From: a virus
Reading direction: 5' to 3' (one strand)
DNA: 64,000 nucleotides
Virus record (IMG/VR): IMGVR_UViG_3300037851_000452
Coordinates: 41,846-105,845 of that record
Shown here: one piece after another, positions 28,364-57,831 of the stretch
Layout of the letters: the number at the start of each line of letters is the position of its first letter
Numbering within the stretch: position 1 is the first letter of the stretch
The notes under the pieces: model-generated
The model's input: only the letters and a program-made list of their open reading frames with translations
Told to the model about the DNA's origin: nothing
The model's database searches: none
Program-made: the position numbers and the translations under genes

Positions 28364-29238
28364 TAAATCAGGCACCCAGAAAGTCTTACTAGGGGCTATA
28401 CATGCTTGTAGGTACAACTACACTAGGTGGGGTTTCAATAAAAAGGTTAACTCGTGGAAGTCAGCAGAAGGTACTTCTACGGTGTGACCAGTGCGGTAAA
28501 GAAACGATCACCTGGTGGGGTAACTACATCCAATATCAAGAAAAGACACAGCGAAACGGAAAGACATATTGTCAATCATGCGCTACCAAAATAGGTGGGG
28601 TAAAGAGAAAAGGCCGTAAGGCTCCCCACACAGCTAAAAGAAACAGTTCTCAGGTTGGAAAGAATCACCCCTCGTGGAGAGGCGGTCAGTACGTTGACGC
28701 AAACGGCTACCGTATGGTCAATGTACGCTCCGGACGTAGAAAATCAGGATGGGGAAACTACAAAAAAGAACACATACTTGTGGTTGAACGTAACATCGGA
28801 AGAAAGATCCTTAAGAGCGAGCTTGTTCACCACGTTGACGGGGTCAAGCTAAACAACCACATATCCAACCTGTTTTTAACGGATTCTTCTGGGCATAGAA
28901 ACGCGCATGTGTCTCTTCAAGATATTGGCTACGAGCTAGTTCGTAGCAAGCTAGTAAAGTTCAGTAAGAAAACTGGGAAGTATTCTGTGGCGGATGTAAA
29001 ACTCCGTGAACTGCTGGGACACCCTAAGATGCCTTCTGGGATCGGGCAATCAGCAGCCAAGCTTTTCAGGAATGAAAAGAAGGTTCAACGACTAGGTCAT
29101 GGAGCCCCAATGCCAAAAAAAGGTAATGGGCGGTAAAGACCCACGAGCGCGGAGCACGGGTAAACCGTGATGATATAGTCTGAGCTTTATGGAAACATAA
29201 AGAACACGGGGATAAAGAGCCCCATGGGTAACAAGATG
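28364..29238 (+). mobile_element. Group I self-splicing intron in thyX
   Basis: P element GAACTGCTGGGA, Q AATCAGCAGCC, R GTTCAACGACTA, S ATGATATAGTC; IGS TTCTGTGGCGGAT (28983-28995) pairs the 5' exon ATCCGT; ends in omega-G 29238. Confidence 0.9.
28402..29136 (+). CDS. Intron-encoded HNH homing endonuclease
   Basis: CDQC/CQSC, NHPSWRGG, EHILVVE...VHHVDGVKLNNHISNL; lies in the P1 loop and reads into the ribozyme core. Confidence 0.88.
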   Translation: MLVGTTTLGGVSIKRLTRGSQQKVLLRCDQCGKETITWWGNYIQYQEKTQRNGKTYCQSCATKIGGVKRKGRKAPHTAKRNSSQVGKNHPSWRGGQYVDANGYRMVNVRSGRRKSGWGNYKKEHILVVERNIGRKILKSELVHHVDGVKLNNHISNLFLTDSSGHRNAHVSLQDIGYELVRSKLVKFSKKTGKYSVADVKLRELLGHPKMPSGIGQSAAKLFRNEKKVQRLGHGAPMPKKGNGR

Positions 29239-29808
29239 AACAGAACCGCAGCAGTAAATGAATACTCTACTCGGTATTCCGAAGCCATCGACCTTATGGA
29301 AACTACGAATCCCTCCGACTGGAGGTTGCAGAGCAAGTCCAGTCGGCAAGGAAGCGACGCCGACTTCCTGTCCGAAGAACTAGGTAAGTCTTTAAGTCAG
29401 GGAGAAAGAAACATTCATGAAATGTGCCGTGCAGAATACAAAAAACGTCTGTCTCTAGGAGTGGCCAGAGAGCAGGCCAGAAAAGACCTTCCGCTCTCCA
29501 ACATGACGGAGGCGTACTGGAAGATTGACCTGCACAATCTACTCCACAACTTTCTTGCCAAAAGACTGAAACCAGAAGCCCAGCTAGAGATACGAAGGTA
29601 CGCCCAAGTCATAGCCGACATCGTTAAGAAATGGGTACCCCACACGTGGGAGGCGTTCGAGGACTACGTCCTAAACGCCATGACCCTGTCTAAAAGCGAA
29701 CTGGAGATAATCTCCTACCGTAAGCTGGGGGCGGTTCCTCTGTCCCCATCCGAGGTTAGGGAGCTGACCGAAAAGTGTGTCAAACTAGGGGTAGTCCTCG
29801 AGCCCTAG
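29239..29808 (+). CDS. thyX: Flavin-dependent thymidylate synthase, exon 2
   Basis: NRTAAVNEYSTRY, GVAREQARKDLP, AQLEIRRYA. Confidence 0.9.
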   Translation, partial: NRTAAVNEYSTRYSEAIDLMETTNPSDWRLQSKSSRQGSDADFLSEELGKSLSQGERNIHEMCRAEYKKRLSLGVAREQARKDLPLSNMTEAYWKIDLHNLLHNFLAKRLKPEAQLEIRRYAQVIADIVKKWVPHTWEAFEDYVLNAMTLSKSELEIISYRKLGAVPLSPSEVRELTEKCVKLGVVLEP

Positions 29809-32990: not shown

Positions 32991-33851
32991 ATGGCATTTG
33001 TAGACATCAATGAAGTGGCAAACCGTACGGACCTGTTCAAAGAATTCAAGAGCAGGACTCAATGGGACGCGTTCGACTACTATTTTGTAGCTATTCACGT
33101 CCAAGAGATAGCCGGAGGCATACCGAAGAACGCGGACCTCTATAAGAGCTTCGTAGAAGCAAAGTGTAAGGAGAAAGAGGAGACGGAGAGGTCTCGAATC
33201 GTAGAGGCCCGAATCTCCGACCTTCCAACTATCGTGTCTGAGGAGGCAAAGAAGGGCTGGACAGGGTTCCTGTCCGACGAGCGGGGCCTGTACATCGAGG
33301 GCCGTCAAATAAAAGCCCTCTTCAAGGAGGCTGCCAACATCACCCGTGACATCGTCCCGGCAAAGATGTTCAAGAAGAAGACCAAGAAGGGCGCAGAAGC
33401 AGAAGCTGCGTCTATGACAGAGGAAGAGTTCCAGTCCCTGGACAAGGTGACTGGGATCACCAACCTCAAGTCAAAGATCGCGGACCAGATGTTCGTTTTG
33501 AACGGTCTGGTCGTTGAAGACCCTCAGGGGCGCTTCATAAAGACGAACGTCCACCTGGGTAAAACCCAAAGCGACGTTATCGTAGTGGAACAACCCATCC
33601 ACGTCATAACGCCACAAGGGCCAAGGTCGTCCATCAAAATCACTGACCGCGTCAAGGACTGCAACATCTCGTTCACCATACGAGTGTTGCGGAAATCAGA
33701 GATAGTGCCTGACACTATCATGGCTATCCTAGACTACGGTCAGGCGTTGGGGTTGGGGGCCGACAGGTCTCAAGGACTCGGCACCTTTGAAGTAAAGGCC
33801 GTCACCAAAATAAGTAGGGACGAGGCCTACGCCCTCATCCTACAACAGTAA
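32991..33851 (+). CDS. Stand-alone Cas7-like RAMP-superfamily RNA-binding protein
   Basis: beta1 YFVAIHV-EIAGG; GLYIEGRQIKALFKEAA (RAMP YIPxxxIKG-like helix); thumb-like EQPIHVITPQGPRSSIKITD; C-terminal Gly loop GLGADRSQGLGTFEV. Confidence 0.75.
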   Translation: MAFVDINEVANRTDLFKEFKSRTQWDAFDYYFVAIHVQEIAGGIPKNADLYKSFVEAKCKEKEETERSRIVEARISDLPTIVSEEAKKGWTGFLSDERGLYIEGRQIKALFKEAANITRDIVPAKMFKKKTKKGAEAEAASMTEEEFQSLDKVTGITNLKSKIADQMFVLNGLVVEDPQGRFIKTNVHLGKTQSDVIVVEQPIHVITPQGPRSSIKITDRVKDCNISFTIRVLRKSEIVPDTIMAILDYGQALGLGADRSQGLGTFEVKAVTKISRDEAYALILQQ

Positions 33852-37479: not shown

Positions 37480-37713
37480 ATGGCCGCCAGGCACGTGATG
37501 GTGCATTTCACCGTCTACAACAAGCCTCGAGACTATCCTGACGAGGTCGTTGTTCGTAGGTGGTTCATAGAACCAGGCAAACCTGTCATCGACCCCGTGA
37601 TCTGGAAGATAGCGAAGACCCTAGAGGAGGCTCGTCGGAGCATACCTCCAGACAAACATAACATCGGGCGAATGCCCAGCGACGACCCATGCATTGTTGA
37701 GACATGGGTTTAG
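37480..37713 (+). CDS. Hypothetical phage protein
   Basis: AGGAG RBS; VYNKPRDYP...DDPCIVETW. Confidence 0.6.
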   Translation: MAARHVMVHFTVYNKPRDYPDEVVVRRWFIEPGKPVIDPVIWKIAKTLEEARRSIPPDKHNIGRMPSDDPCIVETWV

Positions 37714-37720
37714 GAAAAAC

Positions 37721-38539
37721 ATGCTTCTACAATTTACTCTTAGGTGCAACGAAGAATGCTCTCATTGCCTAGTAGATGCTGGTAAGAACCGAGACGAGTT
37801 CATAGACGAAAGGACCATTGAGCGGGTCATTTCGTACCTTAACCGGCTGGGGCCTATTCCCGTGCTAATAACGGGAGGAGAGGTCACGCTACACCCCAGA
37901 TGGTTGGAGTTCTCTAAGAAGCTAGTCAAAGAGACCAACAGCGTTTTTATGGTCTTGAGCAACGGGTCCTGGGTAGAGGACGAAGAGATACAAAACGGCG
38001 TAAGGGAGCTCTTGGACCTCAAAAAGGTTATAGGGATGCAGGTTACCTCTTTCGAGAAGTACTACCCGAACTACCAGCGCATGGTTCGTCTTCAAGACAA
38101 GCTCAAAGAAGTCCACTCGAAAATAGGGCTGGTTCTAGGAGAAAAAAGCCACTGCCTAACCCCGCTAGGAAGAGCAGCAGGGATGAAACCTGAAGGAAAA
38201 CAGTTCTCTGGGTGCTCTAACTTTCTACTAGTGTGCCGTCAAGTAGACACCTGGTATAGCGCGCACTGGGAGCTCGCCAAGGCGCAAAAATTGTGCGTCC
38301 CCGTAATAGACACGCATGGAGACATACGAATCGGTGAGACCCAGCATTGCACCAAAATAGGCGACGTAGACGATAGCAACCACGATCTGTTCAACCGGGC
38401 CCTAAAACTGGAGCCTTGCGGAAAGTGCGGTCTTAGGTCCCCTTTTTCCAGGAGTGACGAATGCTCAGACTTGTTTCAGTCGTTGTTGCAGCCGTTCTCT
38501 GCTCGTGCACAGCGGAAGATCGAAGCATCCAAGCCCTAA
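37721..38539 (+). CDS. Radical SAM protein with C-terminal Cys cluster (SPASM-like)
   Basis: CNEECSHC, ITGGE, LSNG. Confidence 0.85.
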   Translation: MLLQFTLRCNEECSHCLVDAGKNRDEFIDERTIERVISYLNRLGPIPVLITGGEVTLHPRWLEFSKKLVKETNSVFMVLSNGSWVEDEEIQNGVRELLDLKKVIGMQVTSFEKYYPNYQRMVRLQDKLKEVHSKIGLVLGEKSHCLTPLGRAAGMKPEGKQFSGCSNFLLVCRQVDTWYSAHWELAKAQKLCVPVIDTHGDIRIGETQHCTKIGDVDDSNHDLFNRALKLEPCGKCGLRSPFSRSDECSDLFQSLLQPFSARAQRKIEASKP

Positions 38540-38771: not shown

Positions 38772-40358
38772 ATGCAGAACTACACGGAGCACTTTGGCGG
38801 CAAGAACGCGAAGCAGGGAGAGGTCATTCCTGGAAAGGAAAAGAACATGACCTTGAACTCCTGCAACAACTACGTGTTCCGTGTCGGTCCCTGGAACAGG
38901 CTGGAGCGTTTCCTGGTCTTGGGGTCGGACAAGAACACCTACTACGCTTCGGCCAAGAAGCTGACCAGGGAGAATGCGGCAGTTATCGAAGAGCTTATCC
39001 GGGTGGACAACCGCCGGCTCGTCGATACCATTGTTCGTATCTCTGATGAAGGCCGGGCTCCCAACAACGACCCGGCCCTGTTTGCCCTGGCCATGGCTAC
39101 GGTGTTTGGTGACAAGTCTATGGCCATGGATGCCCTTCCCAAGGTTGCGCGTATCGGAACGCACCTGCTCCACTACTTGGAGTACACCAAGGGTCTGGGA
39201 GTTCTTTGGAGACGTACCTTCCGAAAGGGCGTTGCCAATTGGTTCAACGGTAAGGACGTTGGAAACTTGGCCTACCAGGCCATCAAGTACAAATCCCGCG
39301 ATGGCTGGTCCATGCGAGACGCTCTTCGTCTGTCGCATCCCAGTCCCAAAGAGGACGTCGCTCGAGATGCCCTCTATCACTGGATTGTCAAAGGGGTCCT
39401 CAAGGAAGGGATCCCGGACCAGGTAGCGGCGGCGGCCGAGGTCATGTCTCTTGGTACTAAGGACATCAGCAGGTCGGCGGAGCTGATCGTAAAACACCGA
39501 CTTCCTCGAGAGGCTCTGCCTACAGAGCTGCTGTCGGATGCTCGGATATGGGACGCCCTGCTTAAAGGGATGCCTTTGGGGGCCCTGGTCCGTAACCTGG
39601 GAAAGATGTCCAGTTTGGGCATGTTGAATCCGTTTTCCGAAACGTCCAAGGAGATTTGCCGCCGACTTACGGCAGAAGAAGAGATCAAGAAGTCCAGACT
39701 TCATCCTGTTGCCCTGCTGTCCGCTCTACGAGTGTACAAGCAAGGTCGTGGAGATAAGGGATCTCTTAGTTGGTCCGTAAACAACATGGTCTCTAGTGCT
39801 CTAGAAGACGCGTTCTACCTGTCGTTCAAGACCATTGTTCCGACAGGAAAGAACATTGGCCTGTTCCTAGACGTATCTGGGTCTATGGAAGGCGGAGAGA
39901 CAGCTGCTGGTCTGAGCCCCAGAGAGGCATCGGCGGTGTTGGCCATGGTTACGGCTCGCAGCGAGCCCAACTATGAGTGCTGGGCATTTTCCAGTGGCAT
40001 TGTGCCGTTCAAGCTAAGCAAGTCCTCGTCTTTGAAGGAGACGGTAGACGCTATGCGCGCTCTCCCGTTTTCATCTACGGACTGCTCGCTGCCCATGACC
40101 ATGGCAACGAAAAGCAAGATACCGCTGGATGCCTTTATCGTATACACGGACTGTGAGACCAACCATTCCGGCTCACTGCATCCGTCTCGAGCGCTGCAGG
40201 TCTTCCGTCAAAAGATGGGCCGACCAGCTAAGCTGATTGTGGCCGGAATGGTGTCTAATGGGTTCAGCATTGCGGACCCCGAAGACGGTGGTATGCTGGA
40301 CGTGGTGGGGTTTGATTCTTCTGCCCCGTCCGTCATGGCGGACTTCGTAAGAGATTGA
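38772..40358 (+). CDS. rsr: Ro60/TROVE-domain RNA-binding protein (Rsr)
   Basis: RLERFLVLGS..TYY, KYKSRDGWSMRDALRLSHP, RNLGKM, SRLHP; vWA domain LDVSGSM, TDCSLPM, VYTDCET, MLDVVGFD. Confidence 0.95.
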   Translation: MQNYTEHFGGKNAKQGEVIPGKEKNMTLNSCNNYVFRVGPWNRLERFLVLGSDKNTYYASAKKLTRENAAVIEELIRVDNRRLVDTIVRISDEGRAPNNDPALFALAMATVFGDKSMAMDALPKVARIGTHLLHYLEYTKGLGVLWRRTFRKGVANWFNGKDVGNLAYQAIKYKSRDGWSMRDALRLSHPSPKEDVARDALYHWIVKGVLKEGIPDQVAAAAEVMSLGTKDISRSAELIVKHRLPREALPTELLSDARIWDALLKGMPLGALVRNLGKMSSLGMLNPFSETSKEICRRLTAEEEIKKSRLHPVALLSALRVYKQGRGDKGSLSWSVNNMVSSALEDAFYLSFKTIVPTGKNIGLFLDVSGSMEGGETAAGLSPREASAVLAMVTARSEPNYECWAFSSGIVPFKLSKSSSLKETVDAMRALPFSSTDCSLPMTMATKSKIPLDAFIVYTDCETNHSGSLHPSRALQVFRQKMGRPAKLIVAGMVSNGFSIADPEDGGMLDVVGFDSSAPSVMADFVRD

Positions 40359-40759: not shown

Positions 40760-40892
40760 TTGAGTAGGACGAATGAGGATGGTTACCACGCTGTATGTCG
40801 AGGGTTCGAGTCCCTCTGGTGGCGAAAGCTGCCGTAGATCAGTTGGTAGATCGACAGCCTAAAACGCCGTCTTCAAAAACTTGCCTACTCAA
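40760..40892 (+). ncRNA. YrlA-type Y RNA with tRNA-like domain
   Basis: TGAGTAGG-ACGAA...CTTG-CCTACTCA; GAGGG-TTCGAGT-CCCTC; GAAA-capped acceptor stem; GATC-AGTTGGTA-GATC. Confidence 0.75.
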
Positions 40893-41127: not shown

Positions 41128-41204
41128 GGGCCCGTAGCTCAATTGGTTAGAGCAGCCGGCTCATAACCGGCGGGGTGAGAGTTCAAGTCTCTCCGGGCCC
41201 ACCA
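41128..41204 (+). tRNA. tRNA-CAT (probably Ile2, lysidine-modified; Met possible)
   Basis: Full cloverleaf with encoded CCA; anticodon loop CTCATAA; C4-G69/C5-G68. Confidence 0.9.
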
Positions 41205-42770: not shown

Positions 42771-42994
42771 GCCGCGGTGGCCGAGAGGAAAGGCGCACCG
42801 AAAACGGACGGTGACCGGTAAAACGGAGCTACGAACCCCTAGTAACGCATGGTTGCGGATGCACCGAGGACAGGCCGCAGGATGGTAACATCACGGAACA
42901 AACTGTCGTGTAGGGAAGCGCGTTTCCAAGTGAACGGGGGACAAGAGTAAGCTCTTGTTAGTAGCCTACGAGGGTTCAATTCCCTCCCGCGGCA
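42771..42994 (+). ncRNA. tRNA-like RNA with an insert of about 150 nt in the variable region
   Basis: GCCGCGG/CCGCGGC acceptor, D arm TGGCCGAGAGGAAAGGCG, CACCG/CGGTG stem, T arm GAGGG-TTCAATT-CCCTC. Confidence 0.65.
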
Positions 42995-44424: not shown

Positions 44425-44511
44425 GCCAAGGTGTCGGAATGGGTAGACGATAGAGACTTAAAATCTCTTGAGCGTACGCTCGTGCGGGTTCGAGTCCCGC
44501 CCTTGGCACCA
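44425..44511 (+). tRNA. tRNA-Leu(TAA)
   Basis: GCCAAGG/CCTTGGC acceptor, anticodon loop CTTAAAA, long variable arm, CCA. Confidence 0.92.
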
Positions 44512-44928: not shown

Positions 44929-44990
44929 GACTGTACGTACCCAAACTCGCCAAGCCAGACCAACCACAACGCAGACCTGCCGGAACCTAC
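44929..44990 (+). repeat. Pentamer-periodic (NNCNN) array, short
   Basis: GACTG TACGT ACCCA AACTC GCCAA GCCAG ACCAA. Confidence 0.6.
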
Positions 44991-46961: not shown

Positions 46962-46973
46962 GGCTCGAAGTCT

Positions 46974-47108
46974 GACAAACCAAACCTAATGACTACTCGA
47001 GTCTACCCATGTCATCTCAGGCCAAGTCTTTTCGTTACGAACGACGACTCGCCCCGACCCCTGTCGTAGTTACCGGCCCGCCTCGACTACCCATCACATG
47101 GCGGCACA
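46974..47108 (+). repeat. Pentamer-periodic (NNCNN) array
   Basis: GACAA ACCAA ACCTA AT / GACTA CTCGA GTCTA CCCAT GTCAT CTCAG GCCAA GTCTT TTCGT TACGA AC / GACGA CTCGC CCCGA CCCCT GTCGT. Confidence 0.8.
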
Positions 47109-47781
47109 CTTCAACCCGACTGACCAGACGACTTCAAACGGTCTTGGAGGTAACGTGTTTAGAAGTATGTGTAGTGTTATCCCCGCAGGGTCTTGCGGAG
47201 TAGCAAAAGTAGTCCACGCCACGGTATCTAAAGAGGATGCTGAGCTAGACAGACTACAAGGACGACTACGCGGGCATGCCCCAGTAAGAGAGGGGCCTCT
47301 GTGTATGCTGTACGTCAAAAACGAGCTAATGATGTCCGACGGACCTAACGAGCATAGAACCAACTACGACGTGGTGGTTAAGTCTTTCGGAGATGTCCTA
47401 ATAGCCGGACTGGGTCTAGGAATGATAGTCGTACCTATCCTGAAAAAGCCTGTCGTAACGTCCGTAACCGTTATTGAGAAGTACAAGGACGTGGATGACC
47501 TAGTCACCCCGCACGTTCTTAAAGAAGCAGGTAGCAGCGCTGATAAGCTAAAAGTTATAGTAGACGATATCTACAACTGGGATCCACCAAAAGAAGCGAA
47601 GTACGACGTCATCTACTTCGACATATGGGCTTCTCAAAGCACAGACGACCTTGCGGGAATAACCCGGCTCAAAAGAAGATTTGCTAGTCGTCTAAAAAAA
47701 GGAGGATACCAGGCCGCGTGGAGAGAGAAAGAGCTTCGTGCTAGTAGGAGGCGTGAGGTAAGAGAGAAGCCTTGGTTCTAG
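47098..47781 (+). CDS. Class I SAM-dependent methyltransferase (spermidine-synthase-like)
   Basis: VLIAGLGLG, VTVIEK, YDVIYFDIW; true start may be a GTG/ATG after the GGAGG near 47146. Confidence 0.75.
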   Translation: MAAHFNPTDQTTSNGLGGNVFRSMCSVIPAGSCGVAKVVHATVSKEDAELDRLQGRLRGHAPVREGPLCMLYVKNELMMSDGPNEHRTNYDVVVKSFGDVLIAGLGLGMIVVPILKKPVVTSVTVIEKYKDVDDLVTPHVLKEAGSSADKLKVIVDDIYNWDPPKEAKYDVIYFDIWASQSTDDLAGITRLKRRFASRLKKGGYQAAWREKELRASRRREVREKPWF

Positions 47782-48367: not shown

Positions 48368-48372
48368 CAACT

Positions 48373-48700
48373 GACAAGCCTACCCGGCCCTTCCCGACCC
48401 CGAACTGGCCGCGTAACACGAGTCAAGCCGACGTGACATGACGACCCAAGATCAACGCGACCCGACAGACAAACCAAACTCATTGACTATACGTCCCCGC
48501 CCCTGCCCAGACATTGGACAAGCCACCACGGCCCTACCCACGGCATCGAGACTTGGGTATTCTAAAGGTGCGCCGAGGACGCTTCTTTTGACCGTAATCA
48601 ACCAGCTCAGGTCCTTGTGGATGGAACTCTGCCTCGGCGCACTTTTAATAAGACAACCCTCTTGACTACACATGCCGTGACGATGCACCCCTGCTCGGCC
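48373..48700 (+). repeat. Pentamer-periodic array interrupted by a hairpin RNA
   Basis: GACTA TACGT CCCCG CCCCT GCCCA GACAT TG / GACAA GCCAC CACGG CCCTA CCCAC GGCAT; followed by a GGCCTG/CAGGCC hairpin and T-tract. Confidence 0.75.
48558..48650 (+). ncRNA. Rod-like RNA with a degenerate SRP-domain-IV-like core
   Basis: 15-bp stem AAAGGTGCGCCGAGG/CCTCGGCGCACTTTT enclosing AACCAGCTCAGGTCC-TTGT-GGA. Confidence 0.35.
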
Positions 48701-48741
48701 TGACCAAGAGACAGGCCTCTTTACCAAAAAAAGGAGTTTAG

Positions 48742-49517: not shown

Positions 49518-49940
49518 ATGACGGTGAGCGCTATTCTTCTGTCTCTTTTCCTGAACACCCCCACGGACCCGTGCGGTATCGGATGTGTGTCTCGTTCCGG
49601 AAATCTCTTCACCGGATATTCGTATTCGGTAGAAGGCGGTGAGTCCCTATCAGAGGGAGACATTACCTGGGCGTTTGCCCGGTATCCTCTGCTCGACGAG
49701 CGGTTGAAACTGCATCAGACCGTTTGGGGAGTTCAGCTAGGCATTTCCATTGTCGGTGTATCGGCGTCTGGATACTACGTCTGGAAGGCCACGAACTCCA
49801 ACTACCGAAAGAACATGGACCGTGTCTATGCGATAGCCGGAACGTCACTAATCCTAAACGTGGCGTTGGGGTTGTTTCGCAACTACGTCTATGGTTCTTT
49901 GGGAGACGAGTACAATGTGCTCCTAGGGCAAGAGCAATAG
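49518..49940 (+). CDS. Membrane protein
   Basis: Signal peptide plus two transmembrane segments. Confidence 0.55.
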   Translation: MTVSAILLSLFLNTPTDPCGIGCVSRSGNLFTGYSYSVEGGESLSEGDITWAFARYPLLDERLKLHQTVWGVQLGISIVGVSASGYYVWKATNSNYRKNMDRVYAIAGTSLILNVALGLFRNYVYGSLGDEYNVLLGQEQ

Positions 49941-50072
49941 ACGAGCCACCGCATCACGATCAGTAACGAGCCCTAAAAGGAACAAACCAAACCAGCAGAC
50001 AAGCCGTTTTGGCCCACTCCATCCCAAAAGACGAGACATGTCGAGTCAAGACGTGTCACGAGACGTTACAAC
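49940..50072 (+). repeat. Pentamer-periodic array
   Basis: GACAA GCCGT TTTGG CCCAC TCCAT CCCAA AA / GACGA GACAT GTCGA GTCAA GACGT GTCAC GA (32-nt units). Confidence 0.75.
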
Positions 50073-50087
50073 TTAAAGGAGAAAGAT

Positions 50088-51972: not shown

Positions 51973-52210
51973 GACAAAGCGAGCCATCCCGGAACATCCA
52001 AGACGCCCCATATGGACACCACACGACAAGCCATCCACACTCAAACGACTACTCATTTCTCCCCAACTGCGTCCCTCCCCATTAGACAACCCCTCTCACT
52101 ACGCCACGCCGCTACCCCATCCGTCAGACACCCCCGACCCGAACGCTGCTGACCTGGTCGAATAGACTACACATGGCGCCCCGTAACCCCGCATTCCTCA
52201 ATGACCCGCC
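51973..52210 (+). repeat. Pentamer-periodic array
   Basis: 52085: GACAA CCCCT CTCAC TACGC CACGC CGCTA CCCCA TCCGT CA (8/8 C3); followed by a GGTGGGGAGG/CCTCCCCACC hairpin. Confidence 0.8.
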
Positions 52211-52242
52211 TGGTGGGGAGGTTATTCCTCCCCACCTAATCA

Positions 52243-52271
52243 GAAATTCTTTCTTAGGTTTTAGGTATAAG
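52243..52271 (+). promoter_or_regulatory. Phage promoter GAAAT-N16-GGTATAAG
   Basis: Motif copy. Confidence 0.6.
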
Positions 52272-53959: not shown

Positions 53960-53977
53960 GGCAACGGCCAGCCAAAA

Positions 53978-54173
53978 GACAAACCGAACTCGACCCTTCC
54001 GACTGACAGAACACACCACTTCGGTTCACGACAGTCCTCGACACATCAAAAGACGAGTCTCGACGTTCCAATACGACCCAATACGAATAGACTGGCCAAG
54101 ACTTCGCAAGACCTGACACGCCGAAAAGACAAGTAGACTCTTCTGCCCTTGCCGCCCCAAGCCCGTAATGACG
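53978..54173 (+). repeat. Pentamer-periodic array
   Basis: 54052 GACGA GTCTC GACGT TCCAA TACGA CCCAA TACGA ATA / 54090 GACTG GCCAA GACTT CGCAA GACCT GACAC GCCGA AAA (38-nt units). Confidence 0.8.
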
Positions 54174-54221
54174 TAATGTCCGGGTCATTACATAGCGACC
54201 CGGACATTACAAGGAGGATTC

Positions 54222-56059: not shown

Positions 56060-56603
56060 CGACGAGTCTGGACATGCCACGACGTCTTGAACCGAGACGT
56101 AGACAAACCAATTTGACAAGACGAGACGTCATACGGCATTTCAACCCCTGTAGACGATGCGTCCCGAGACTGGCCAAGACGATACGGGCCCGTTTACAGA
56201 AACCGGGTCGTAATGACCTGGACATTGACAAACCAACGCAAGTGACAAGCCGAAGCGAGACGCCCTCAGCCTATCCTTTTCGCCGGACGCTACGTGCCAG
56301 AAGCTTCCCGCCCCCTTAAGACAATACGTGACCGCACGCCATAGCTCCAACCGTCTAGACTATCCTGGCCCCCCCGTAACCTGCCTTAACGTTAGACGTC
56401 CCTAGACGATCTGTCTCGTCTCAGACCCCACCGACTATCCTGGCCACATCGAGACTAACCACCCCAAACGACCTGCCGCGAAGGCCGCCCCCTCCCGTGA
56501 TGACTAGCCATCCCAAGACATCCCAAGACACCACCACCGGACATCACAGACCCCGTCCCGCCGCGTCCGTTACACTCTGACTTCCCGCCACGATTCCTTA
56601 CGC
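56054..56603 (+). repeat. Longest pentamer-periodic array (about 550 nt)
   Basis: e.g. 56358 GACTA TCCTG GCCCC CCCGT AACCT GCCTT AACGT TA (37 nt); GACTA GCCAT CCCAA GACAT CCCAA GACAC CACCA. Confidence 0.82.
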
Positions 56604-56604
56604 G

Positions 56605-56633
56605 AACAAATCACAAAGGCCTTTAGGTATAAG
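56605..56633 (+). promoter_or_regulatory. Phage promoter AACAA-N16-GGTATAAG
   Basis: Motif copy followed by an AGAGCTCAGGC/GCCTGAGCTCT leader hairpin. Confidence 0.55.
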
Positions 56634-57382: not shown

Positions 57383-57745
57383 ACGTGTCAGCTCGCGACG
57401 ACCGCGGCTCAACGCACGTCTGGACAAACCAAAGCATTGTGACAAGCCATCTCGAAACAGTCCCATTGACTATACGGGCCCTGCCGACCCCACACTACCC
57501 CGATAGACGAACCCTCCCACTACGTGCAGATCTATCCCTATGACAAACCATTAGACATTCCGGCACGTGACGCCCCTCACCCCGTCCCATAAGACTGGCC
57601 AGGTCTTCCCGACACCGCTCGTGGCCCCCCGACTCATCCTGACTGACCACCCCGCCGCAATACAGCTCGCCCCCAATGACTACCCGTCACGCCCCACTCC
57701 TGCCCTACTCGATAGACAATACATTCTCTGTCGAACCTACCCACC
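57382..57745 (+). repeat. Pentamer-periodic array ending at a terminator
   Basis: 57641 GACTG ACCAC CCCGC CGCAA TACAG CTCGC CCCCA AT / 57678 GACTA CCCGT CACGC CCCAC TCCTG CCCTA CTCGA TA. Confidence 0.82.
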
Positions 57746-57749
57746 ACTC

Positions 57750-57773
57750 AGGGGGCTCACAGAGCCCCCTTTA
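57750..57773 (+). terminator. Intrinsic terminator after the array
   Basis: AGGGGGCTC-ACA-GAGCCCCCT-TTA. Confidence 0.6.
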
Positions 57774-57831
57774 TATGTCCCCATCTTCGACTCTTAATAA
57801 GTGCTTAGAACGTTTTGTACCGTACCCACTT

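What the first reader, a model, noticed from the sequence alone, without database searches (positions are those of the whole stretch)
46974..47108. Array grammar: GACNN(NNCNN)n plus a 2-3 nt linker
Seen: 10 consecutive pentamers with C at position 3 (46991-47040), 8/8 at 52085, and 7/7 at 54052, 54090, 56358, 57641 and 57678. Unit lengths cluster at 17, 27, 32/33, 37/38, 42 and 52 nt, so phase resets at each GAC head. Units are mostly unique, like spacers, but heads recur (GACTATCCTGGCC twice in the 56-kb array; GACTGGCCAAGAC at 54090 and 56168). Period 5 is incompatible with codon structure and the variability is unlike a satellite.
Basis: seen in the sequence. Interest (0 to 1): 0.85.

Follow-up and report, generated by a model that had tools for sequence, protein, structure and literature searches.

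The report
Cytosine-phased VIPR-like guide RNA arrays
The five-letter repeats with a fixed C are real and are most likely the guide-RNA arrays of a phage VIPR-type system (a CRISPR-related, RNA-guided DNA binder first described in 2026), here in an unusual form: a distant Cas7-like protein, a C-based instead of GGY-based repeat, and arrays scattered between early genes.

Summary
Observation confirmed. Eight intergenic tracts (window 44.9-57.7 kb, + strand only) have C at lag 5 with z = 11 against dinucleotide shuffles. The motif WGAC(N4C)6 occurs 17 times forward and 0 times reverse or in controls.

Units start with GAC after an A/T-rich linker. Only the phased C is fixed, and the two bases after it are free.

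This matches the published VIPR grammar: a Vipr RAMP protein plus vrRNAs of GGY/NN pentamers (bioRxiv 10.64898/2026.04.26.720920). The phage's only RAMP gene is 32991-33851. It folds confidently as a Cas7 (Z about 12 to Csm3 and type VII Cas7) and is remotely related to the Vipr profile (hhalign E 1.6e-4).

In 80 viral contigs with homologues of this gene, 76 carry same-strand C-phased arrays, and 72 of those lie within about 720 nt of the gene. They use the same unit heads (GACTACCC, GACAAGCC). A cultured phage, Microcystis phage Mae-JY09, has the same module.

Two phages with 97% identical RAMPs keep 92% of phased Cs but only about 50% of the other positions, and differ by about 380 nt of units.

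Differences here: a C-centred code, short units without tails, no accessory gene, and arrays 11-24 kb from the gene. Targets and the transcribed strand are unresolved.

The scan has met VIPR often on other DNA, including one cytosine-phased case.

The parts
32991..33851 (+). Stand-alone Cas7-like RAMP gene (286 aa), the candidate Vipr-like partner of the arrays. It is monocistronic, between a phage promoter-like motif and a hairpin terminator.
   Evidence: AF2 model has pLDDT 89.4 and pTM 0.83. Foldseek top hits are all Cmr4, Csm3 or type VII Cas7, probability 1.0, E down to 4e-7. VIA Z is 10-12.2 over 160-172 residues. It has 46 homologues with invariant G-x-G-x-x-R-S-x-x-x-G. hhalign to the Vipr profile gives E 1.6e-4. 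It is the only such gene in the 105.8-kb record.
44929..44985 (+). Array tract 1: two overlapping in-phase C runs of 7 and 5.
46962..47150 (+). Array tract 2, the given finding. It holds the short unit GACAAACCAAAC at 46975, then units headed at 46991 (10 pentamers), 47043 (5) and 47075 (9). It ends before the GGAGG ribosome site of the methyltransferase gene.
   Evidence: The PHROG match of the downstream ORF starts at residue 24, so its true start is about 47157-47168.
48368..48740 (+). Array tract 3. It has units at 48373, 48485 and 48517, a long hairpin followed by TTTT (about 48548-48645), and one more unit at 48664.
49940..50087 (+). Array tract 4: AACAAACCAAAC at 49982 and one 6-pentamer unit at 50030.
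51973..52250 (+). Array tract 5. It has units at 51973, 52085, 52127 and 52165, followed by a G+C hairpin (52205-52229). The promoter-like motif TTAGGTATAAGA of the next gene comes after it.
53960..54221 (+). Array tract 6: GACAAACCGAAC at 53979 and units at 54005, 54052, 54090 and 54136.
56060..56605 (+). Array tract 7, the longest. It has about 9 units and two GACAAACCAA copies (56103, 56228).
57383..57770 (+). Array tract 8. It has about 8 units and GACAAACC copies at 57424 and 57543, and is closed by a + strand intrinsic terminator at 57750-57770, after which gene orientation flips.

Best explanation
The tracts are arrays of guide-RNA units of a VIPR-type system.

Inferred by analogy: the + strand is transcribed with the early genes. 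The transcript is cut at the A/T-rich linkers into units of about 30-50 nt that start with GAC. One protomer of the Cas7-like protein encoded at 32991-33851 binds each pentamer. It holds the fixed C (and weakly the one or two bases before it) in a pocket and exposes the free bases. The free bases then read a gapped DNA target, probably in a rival phage or mobile element, and binding silences it.

Shown here: the grammar, its strand bias, the Cas7 fold of the protein, and the tight genomic linkage of this protein family with the same grammar in other phages.

Inferred only from the published SUSP1 system: RNA expression, filament formation, DNA targeting, the pairing rule and the biological target.
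For: (1) Grammar: C is fixed every 5 nt, the two bases after it are free, and units have GAC heads. This parallels the published GGY/NN pentamer code, in which position 3 is a pyrimidine.

(2) My profile A1 of proteins next to GAC/NN or GGY/NN arrays hits the SUSP1 gene that is flanked by one upstream and three downstream GGYNN tracts. It also hits PDB 36pp 'SUSP1 Vipr protein' at E 1e-13. This anchors the comparison.

(3) Window ORF 32991-33851 has a Cas7 fold and aligns to A1 from helix 1 to the G-loop.

(4) Among 80 viral contigs with homologues of this ORF, C period-5 runs of 7 or more total 1304, against 664 at control periods. G runs total 353 against 584. In 70 of 80 loci the C count exceeds the control.

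(5) 76 of 80 loci have an array cluster, and 72 of those lie within about 720 nt of the gene on its strand.

(6) Relatives and the window share the head vocabulary: GACTACCC, GACAAGCC, GACTGGCC, GACAACCC.

(7) There is spacer-like turnover between phages with 97% identical RAMPs.

(8) The record has no CRISPR array, no other RAMP and no codon periodicity.
Against: The arrays are 11-24 kb from the RAMP gene, not beside it.

The repeat is not GGY, and position 2 is G in only 9% of pentamers.

Units have 5-10 pentamers, not 9-16, and lack the invariant structured 3' tail. Folding z-scores lie within +/-1.1 on either strand.

No accessory (vap-like) gene was found.

Sequence relation to Vipr is weak: hhalign probability is 50%, and the A2 profile does not reach SUSP1 Vipr in the PDB sequence search at E <= 1.

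No target was found.

The transcribed strand is not established. Read on the - strand the arrays are G-phased (G-K-S-N-N), which would fit the published NNNNG variants. Terminator counts in relatives do not decide (3 sense against 8 antisense of 119).
Confidence: 0.75

Rival explanations
1. It is the same VIPR-like system, but the guides are transcribed from the - strand. The RNA would then read G-K-S-N-N with an invariant G, the published NNNNG-type repeat, each unit would end in GTC plus A/T, and GTTTGGTTTGTC would be a short 3' element.
For: The published variants all keep a G. The - strand reading of the commonest triplets, GCC and ACC, is GGC and GGT, which equals GGY. The - strand RNA would be G-rich like SUSP1 vrRNAs. 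There are slightly more terminator-like sites on the antisense 3' side in relatives, 8 against 3 of 119.
Against: All eight tracts sit between co-oriented + strand genes, so eight antisense promoters firing head-on into an operon would be needed. In three tracts a + strand hairpin or terminator follows the array rather than preceding it. In relatives the arrays run up to the ribosome site of the next + gene, leaving no room for an antisense promoter. In SUSP1 the arrays lie on the gene's strand. In the GAC/NN group of Vipr relatives 17 of 18 genes lie on the arrays' strand. In L208 both long arrays are followed on that strand by a similar stretch (seen by eye), the place where SUSP1 vrRNAs have their 3' tail. 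The GAC head equals the repeat triplet of that group.
Confidence: 0.2
2. The tracts are decoy or sponge RNAs. They would soak up the Vipr-type protein of a competing phage (anti-VIPR), or store the phage's own protein, without guiding anything.
For: The arrays are far from the RAMP gene and unusually numerous (about 33 units). No target was found. The short recurring unit GACAAACCAAAC carries little information.
Against: The free positions are maximally diverse and turn over between near-identical phages, as expected for guides and not needed for a sponge. The same grammar sits directly beside the RAMP gene in 72 of 76 relatives.
Confidence: 0.05
3. The tracts are protein-binding or transcription-control elements unrelated to the RAMP gene. 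Examples would be C-rich Rho-loading (rut-like) leaders, or double-stranded DNA sites for a polymerising regulator.
For: The tracts are C-rich and G-poor (35% C, 20% G) and lie in leaders of early genes. Heads such as TTGACT and TTGACA resemble -35 hexamers.
Against: Rho sites are not known to need a strict 5-nt phase (my own knowledge, not tested). Sigma-70-type promoters are depleted here, 2 found against 9.7 expected. The linkage with one RAMP family across 76 unrelated contigs is unexplained by this reading.
Confidence: 0.04

Closest known systems
VIPR systems (Vipr RAMP + vrRNA). The reference is type II of Escherichia phage SUSP1, bioRxiv 10.64898/2026.04.26.720920 and 10.64898/2026.04.26.720927, PDB 36pp.
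   Same: Both are phage-borne with a stand-alone Cas7-like RAMP outside any CRISPR locus. Both have tandem pentamers with a fixed part and hypervariable bases, a pyrimidine at pentamer position 3, and arrays on the gene's strand. In relatives the arrays flank the gene. Unit content turns over between close relatives.
   Different: The fixed part here is C alone (preceded by A/C, rarely G), not GGY. Units have 5-10 pentamers with a GAC head, A/T-rich linkers and no structured 3' tail or own terminator. The protein is 286 aa rather than about 200 and only remotely related. The G-loop reads G-L-G-A-D-R-S where Vipr relatives have G-x-G-[DE]-W-R-P. No accessory gene was found. The arrays are scattered in eight intergenic tracts 11-24 kb from the gene.
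VIPR 'staggered arrays' and alternative repeat consensuses (NNNGG, YNNNG, NNNNG) named in the same preprint.
   Same: Units abut directly and lack tails. In relatives the last C of one unit is followed at once by the GAC of the next. Only one base per pentamer is strongly fixed.
   Different: The preprint lists only G-centred forms. A C-centred form on the gene's strand is not mentioned. I could not see its figures or tables, so I cannot tell whether this protein family is among its seven types.
CRISPR class 1 Cas7 backbones (Csm3, Cmr4, type VII Cas7).
   Same: The best structural matches of the protein are these Cas7 proteins (Z 10-12). They share the G-rich loop, a long beta-hairpin thumb, and one protomer per RNA segment.
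   Different: The period is 5 rather than 6. There is no repeat-spacer array, no cas1, cas2, cas5, cas6 or cas10, and the guide information is noncontiguous.
TRAP (trp RNA-binding attenuation protein) with GAG/UAG triplets every 5-6 nt. This is an analogy from my own knowledge.
   Same: An oligomeric protein reads a triplet repeated with 2-3 nt spacers on single-stranded RNA.
   Different: TRAP is an 11-mer ring with an unrelated fold and a fixed number of repeats. Its spacers carry no information.

Membership tests
VIPR | Stand-alone RAMP with RRM core, G-loop and thumb, outside a CRISPR-cas locus | tested here: met
   The AF2 model has pLDDT 89. Matches to Cas7 chains give Foldseek probability 1.0 and Z up to 12.2. 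The G-loop glycines are invariant in 47 homologues. The window has no CRISPR-like repeats. Profile searches of the whole record found no second RAMP.
VIPR | Protein homologous to Vipr (SUSP1 Vipr family) | tested here: inconclusive
   Profile-profile comparison of A2 against A1 gives E 1.6e-4 and probability 50% over 133 columns, from helix 1 to the G-loop. A1 itself hits SUSP1 Vipr at E 1e-13, but the A2 profile does not reach it at E <= 1.
VIPR | Tandem pentamers with a conserved GGY triplet alternating with a hypervariable NN | tested here: not met
   The pentamer period and the hypervariable NN are present, but the triplet is S-M-C. Position 1 is G in 42%, position 2 is G in 9%, and position 3 is C in 100% of pentamers. 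This is a 'related consensus' at best, and the preprint lists only G-centred variants.
VIPR | vrRNA of 9-16 repeats followed by an invariant structured 3' tail | tested here: not met
   Units have 5-10 pentamers. No conserved element follows them. Folding energy equals that of shuffles on both strands. Rfam finds no ribozyme in the tracts.
VIPR | Arrays in the long intergenic regions flanking the vipr gene, on its strand | tested here: not met
   The strand is the same, but the nearest array is 11 kb downstream of the gene. The feature is met in 72 of 76 relatives of the gene, including Microcystis phage Mae-JY09.
VIPR | Accessory vap gene next to vipr | tested here: inconclusive
   A protein of about 170-250 aa lies just upstream of the RAMP gene in 38 of 80 relatives. 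It has no detectable homologue in the window. The closest relatives also lack it.
VIPR | Array RNAs expressed and co-purifying with the protein | not testable with these tools
   Needs small-RNA sequencing and a pull-down.
VIPR | Free bases match natural DNA targets under the 1-nt skip rule | tested here: inconclusive
   In the phage's own 105.8-kb record no skip rule beats shuffled guides. The 10-pentamer guide at 46993 has 0 exact hits in viral contigs and 3 chance-level hits in 596 Gb of genomes. Only exact matches of one guide could be scanned.
CRISPR-Cas | Repeat-spacer array with identical repeats of about 24-40 nt, plus adaptation and effector cas genes | tested here: not met
   The window has no such repeat family. 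The record holds only one RAMP gene.

The most novel reading that the evidence does not exclude
This would be a separate, cytosine-phased branch of VIPR. A larger Cas7-like protein reads pentamers with only one or two fixed letters ([A/C]C) and up to three free letters. The guides are short, tail-less, GAC-headed units cut out of the intergenic spacers of ordinary early mRNAs. A phage can then spread about 33 guides through its early operon rather than keep them in a locus beside the protein gene. The pairing rule may then differ from the published 1-nt skip rule.
Probability: 0.35. Interest if true: 0.7.

Novelty: new variant of a known kind. Interest (0 to 1): 0.55.

Why it matters
VIPR is a very recent discovery, and its rules rest mainly on one clade (SUSP1 and Pseudomonas fulva).

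A second, distant protein family would show which parts of the code are essential and which can change. This family has a C-based repeat, tail-less units and scattered arrays. It would also widen the set of programmable DNA binders and give many natural guides for working out what phages aim at.

The family is common: 110 viral contigs were confirmed in one scan. It occurs in a cultured cyanophage, Microcystis phage Mae-JY09, so it can be tested directly.

For annotation, it explains long 'empty' C-rich intergenic regions and the spurious ORFs called across them.

Tried and rejected
- **Chance or composition:** rejected.
- **Coding sequence:** rejected. There is no lag-3 or lag-6 signal.
- **GACAAACCAAAC motif scan of viral contigs:** gave single chance hits, and the C-rich contigs it returned were false positives.
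- **Close relatives of the phage:** none found by megablast, by the DHH protein or by the metagenome scan with the 56% identical RAMP homologue, whose own contig did not come back.
- **Tail-sheath relatives:** they lack the arrays.
- **Pfam and PHROGs:** they give nothing for the RAMP gene or its 47 family members.
- **Lead from an earlier scan note** (guides spell whole codons and sit beside a silently recoded own gene): not supported here. Peptides read from any three pentamer positions, or from NN plus a wobble base, match the phage's six-frame translation no better than shuffled guides.
- **Structured RNA:** rejected.
- **Sigma-70 promoters and terminators as a way to settle the strand:** uninformative.
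- **Ideas held before the literature search, dropped once the RAMP linkage appeared:** T7-type primase sites (GTC on the - strand), Chi-like sites, type III restriction decoys and a Rho sponge.

Full report
**1. What is in the sequence.**

The window is the last 64 kb of a 105,845-bp IMG/VR viral record, estimated 55% complete. It is a myovirus with a tail sheath and tail fibre.

The stretch 46974-47130 lies between an Ant/Bro-like gene and a methyltransferase gene. It reads as GAC followed by pentamers whose third base is C. Ten such pentamers run from 46991.

The same pattern fills seven more intergenic tracts between 44.9 and 57.7 kb, always on the + strand, the strand of the surrounding genes.

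Pooled over the eight tracts, C-C pairs at lag 5 number 413, against 288 +/- 11 in 500 dinucleotide-preserving shuffles (z = 11.1). Lags 10, 15 and 20 are also high. Lags 3 and 6 are low, so these are not codons.

WGAC(N4C)6 occurs 17 times forward in the whole record. It never occurs in reverse or in reversed-pattern controls.

**2. Anatomy of the units.**

I aligned 28 units at the first phased C.
- The head is G (82%), A (71%), C (100%), preceded by A/T-rich bases.
- Inside a unit only C is fixed.
- The base before C is A or C, and G in only 9%.
- The base two before C leans to G or C.
- The two bases after C carry 0.01-0.3 bit.
- A short low-information unit, GACAAACCAAAC, occurs eight times, all in these tracts and mostly near their 5' side.

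The tracts have no more secondary structure than shuffles on either strand. They contain no Rfam family.

In three tracts a + strand hairpin or terminator follows the array (48548-48645, 52205-52229, 57750-57770). In two tracts the phage's promoter-like motif TAGGTATAAG comes after the array.

**3. Relatives found by grammar.**

No close relative of the phage exists in the collections.

A pattern of two adjacent units, scanned over IMG/VR, returned 105 loci. In 43 of them WGAC(N4C)5 is strongly strand-specific, with up to 49 hits against 0-1 in controls.

In a 172-kb contig the arrays are very regular (NNGAC)n.

Clustering the ORFs of these loci gave one protein of about 190-210 aa in 18 loci, on the arrays' strand, lying between arrays. 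Longer distant relatives were found in other loci.

**4. The literature.**

A full-text search led to the VIPR preprints. Their main points:
- A phage-encoded ancestral RAMP, Vipr, polymerises one protomer per pentamer along vrRNAs made of 9-16 GGY/NN repeats plus a structured 3' tail.
- The NN bases pair with double-stranded DNA, skipping every third target base.
- Seven types are described, with 'related' consensuses (NNNGG, YNNNG, NNNNG), staggered arrays and ribozyme-separated arrays.

My profile of the array-linked proteins (A1) hits the SUSP1 gene at 28489-29067 (E 4.5e-16). That gene is flanked by one upstream and three downstream GGYNN tracts on its own strand, as the paper describes. 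A1 also hits PDB 36pp 'SUSP1 Vipr protein' at E 1e-13. So the grammar search had recovered true VIPR loci.

**5. The partner protein in this phage.**

Earlier notes on this genome flagged ORF 32991-33851 as RAMP-like.
- Pfam and PHROGs are silent on it.
- It has 46 homologues (alignment A2) with invariant G-x-G-x-x-R-S-x-x-x-G near the C terminus.
- The AlphaFold model is confident (pLDDT 89.4).
- Its best matches are all Cas7-type RAMPs (Cmr4, Csm3, type VII Cas7, Cas7-11). Foldseek gives probability 1.0, and VIA gives Z of 10-12.2 over 160-172 residues.
- Profile-profile comparison with A1 aligns helix 1 through the G-loop (E 1.6e-4, probability 50%).
- The A2 profile alone does not reach SUSP1 Vipr.
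- It is the only RAMP gene in the record, and the window has no CRISPR array.

**6. Linkage test.**

A scan of IMG/VR with A2 confirmed 110 loci, of which 80 were kept, each oriented with the gene on +.
- C runs of 7 or more at period 5 total 1304, against 664 at control periods 4, 6 and 7.
- G runs total 353, against 584 at control periods.
- 70 of 80 loci exceed their own control.
- 76 of 80 loci have an array cluster. In 72 of those the nearest cluster is within about 720 nt of the gene, mostly within 120 nt, upstream or downstream.
- Unit heads are the same words as in the window: GACTACCC, GACAAGCC, GACTGGCC, GACAACCC. One relative even carries GACAAACCAAAC.
- Two contigs found by the grammar scan are the same contigs found by the protein scan.
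- Microcystis phage Mae-JY09, a cultured phage, has the gene at 37713-38459, followed at once by an unannotated array to the end of the record.

**7. Turnover.**

Two contigs have RAMP proteins that are 97% identical and nearly identical flanks. Their arrays share a few units, differ almost completely in others, and differ by about 380 nt of extra units.

By pentamer phase, the C is identical in 92% of aligned columns. The base before it is identical in 62%, and the other three positions in 50-55%.

**8. What is unusual here.**
- In complete relatives of 170-200 kb the arrays mostly form clusters beside the RAMP gene, and one relative has a second cluster 27 kb away. Here nothing lies beside the gene. 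About 33 units are spread over eight tracts 11-24 kb downstream, interleaved with early genes (Ant-like, methyltransferase, DHH phosphoesterase).
- The fixed part of the pentamer is C, not GGY.
- There is no tail.
- No homologue was found of the small protein that precedes the RAMP gene in 38 of 80 relatives.

**9. What remains open.**

*Targets.* Guides do not match the phage's own record above shuffled controls under any skip rule. The one 10-pentamer guide I could scan has no exact hit in viral contigs and three chance-level hits in 596 Gb of genomes. An earlier scan note on another genome suggested that guides spell codons of a neighbouring recoded gene. That is not seen here.

*Strand.* Because G-x-C is self-complementary in form, the arrays read on the - strand are G-phased, which resembles the published NNNNG variants. 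I favour the + strand for four reasons: the operon context, terminators placed after the arrays, arrays abutting the next gene's ribosome site in relatives, and the GAC/NN relatives of SUSP1 Vipr. In that group the arrays lie on the gene's strand, and in one contig they are followed by a similar tail-like stretch. Promoter and terminator scans do not settle it.

**10. Verdict.**

The best reading is a VIPR-type guide array of a cytosine-phased, tail-less, scattered form, paired with a distant Cas7-like protein.

The kind of system is already published, and this scan has met it often on other DNA, once in a cytosine-phased form. I therefore rate it a new variant of a known kind, of moderate interest.

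Noticed in passing
window 38772-40358 (+), with tRNA-like elements near 40802-40823 and 42972-42993: There is a Ro60/TROVE plus vWA homologue (Pfam E 1e-57). Two tRNA genes lie nearby (41128-41201, 44425-44508), along with two further T-arm-like copies and a 120-nt repeat (41663 and 43816). This suggests a phage Ro60 / Y-RNA-like module.
   Followed up: partly
window 28931-29202 (+): There is a group I intron (Rfam RF00028, 88.9 bits). It spans the end of ORF 28402-29136 and lies just before ORF 29224-29808, so it probably splits one gene.
   Followed up: no
window 18292, 24653, 26809, 32067, 35779, 46173, 54195, 56032, 57037, 59344: The near-palindromic motif TAATGACCCGGACATTA is scattered about 10 times, often 5-15 nt before a ribosome-binding site. 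It is a candidate operator or translational control site of the phage.
   Followed up: no
window 31485, 32940, 37340, 52262, 56622 (+): The recurrent motif (T)TAGGTATAAGTATTGTG lies upstream of + strand genes, including the RAMP gene. Sigma-70-type promoters are depleted (2 found, 9.7 expected). It is probably a phage-specific promoter.
   Followed up: no
PP395641.1 (Microcystis phage Mae-JY09) 37713-38976; locus L344 3980-5243: This cultured cyanophage carries a homologue of the RAMP gene, annotated as hypothetical. It is followed by an unannotated C-phased pentamer array of about 500 nt with the same unit heads.
   Followed up: partly
loci L263-L326 (38 of 80), directly upstream of the RAMP gene: A conserved protein of about 170-250 aa lies on the same strand, often overlapping the RAMP start. 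It is a candidate accessory (vap-like) gene of this family and is absent from the window.
   Followed up: partly
window 47009-47203, 48438-48665, 56074-56319, 57385-57543, 57567-57797: These open frames of 52-81 aa run through the arrays. They are most likely not genes, because the tracts have period 5 and no period 3.
   Followed up: partly
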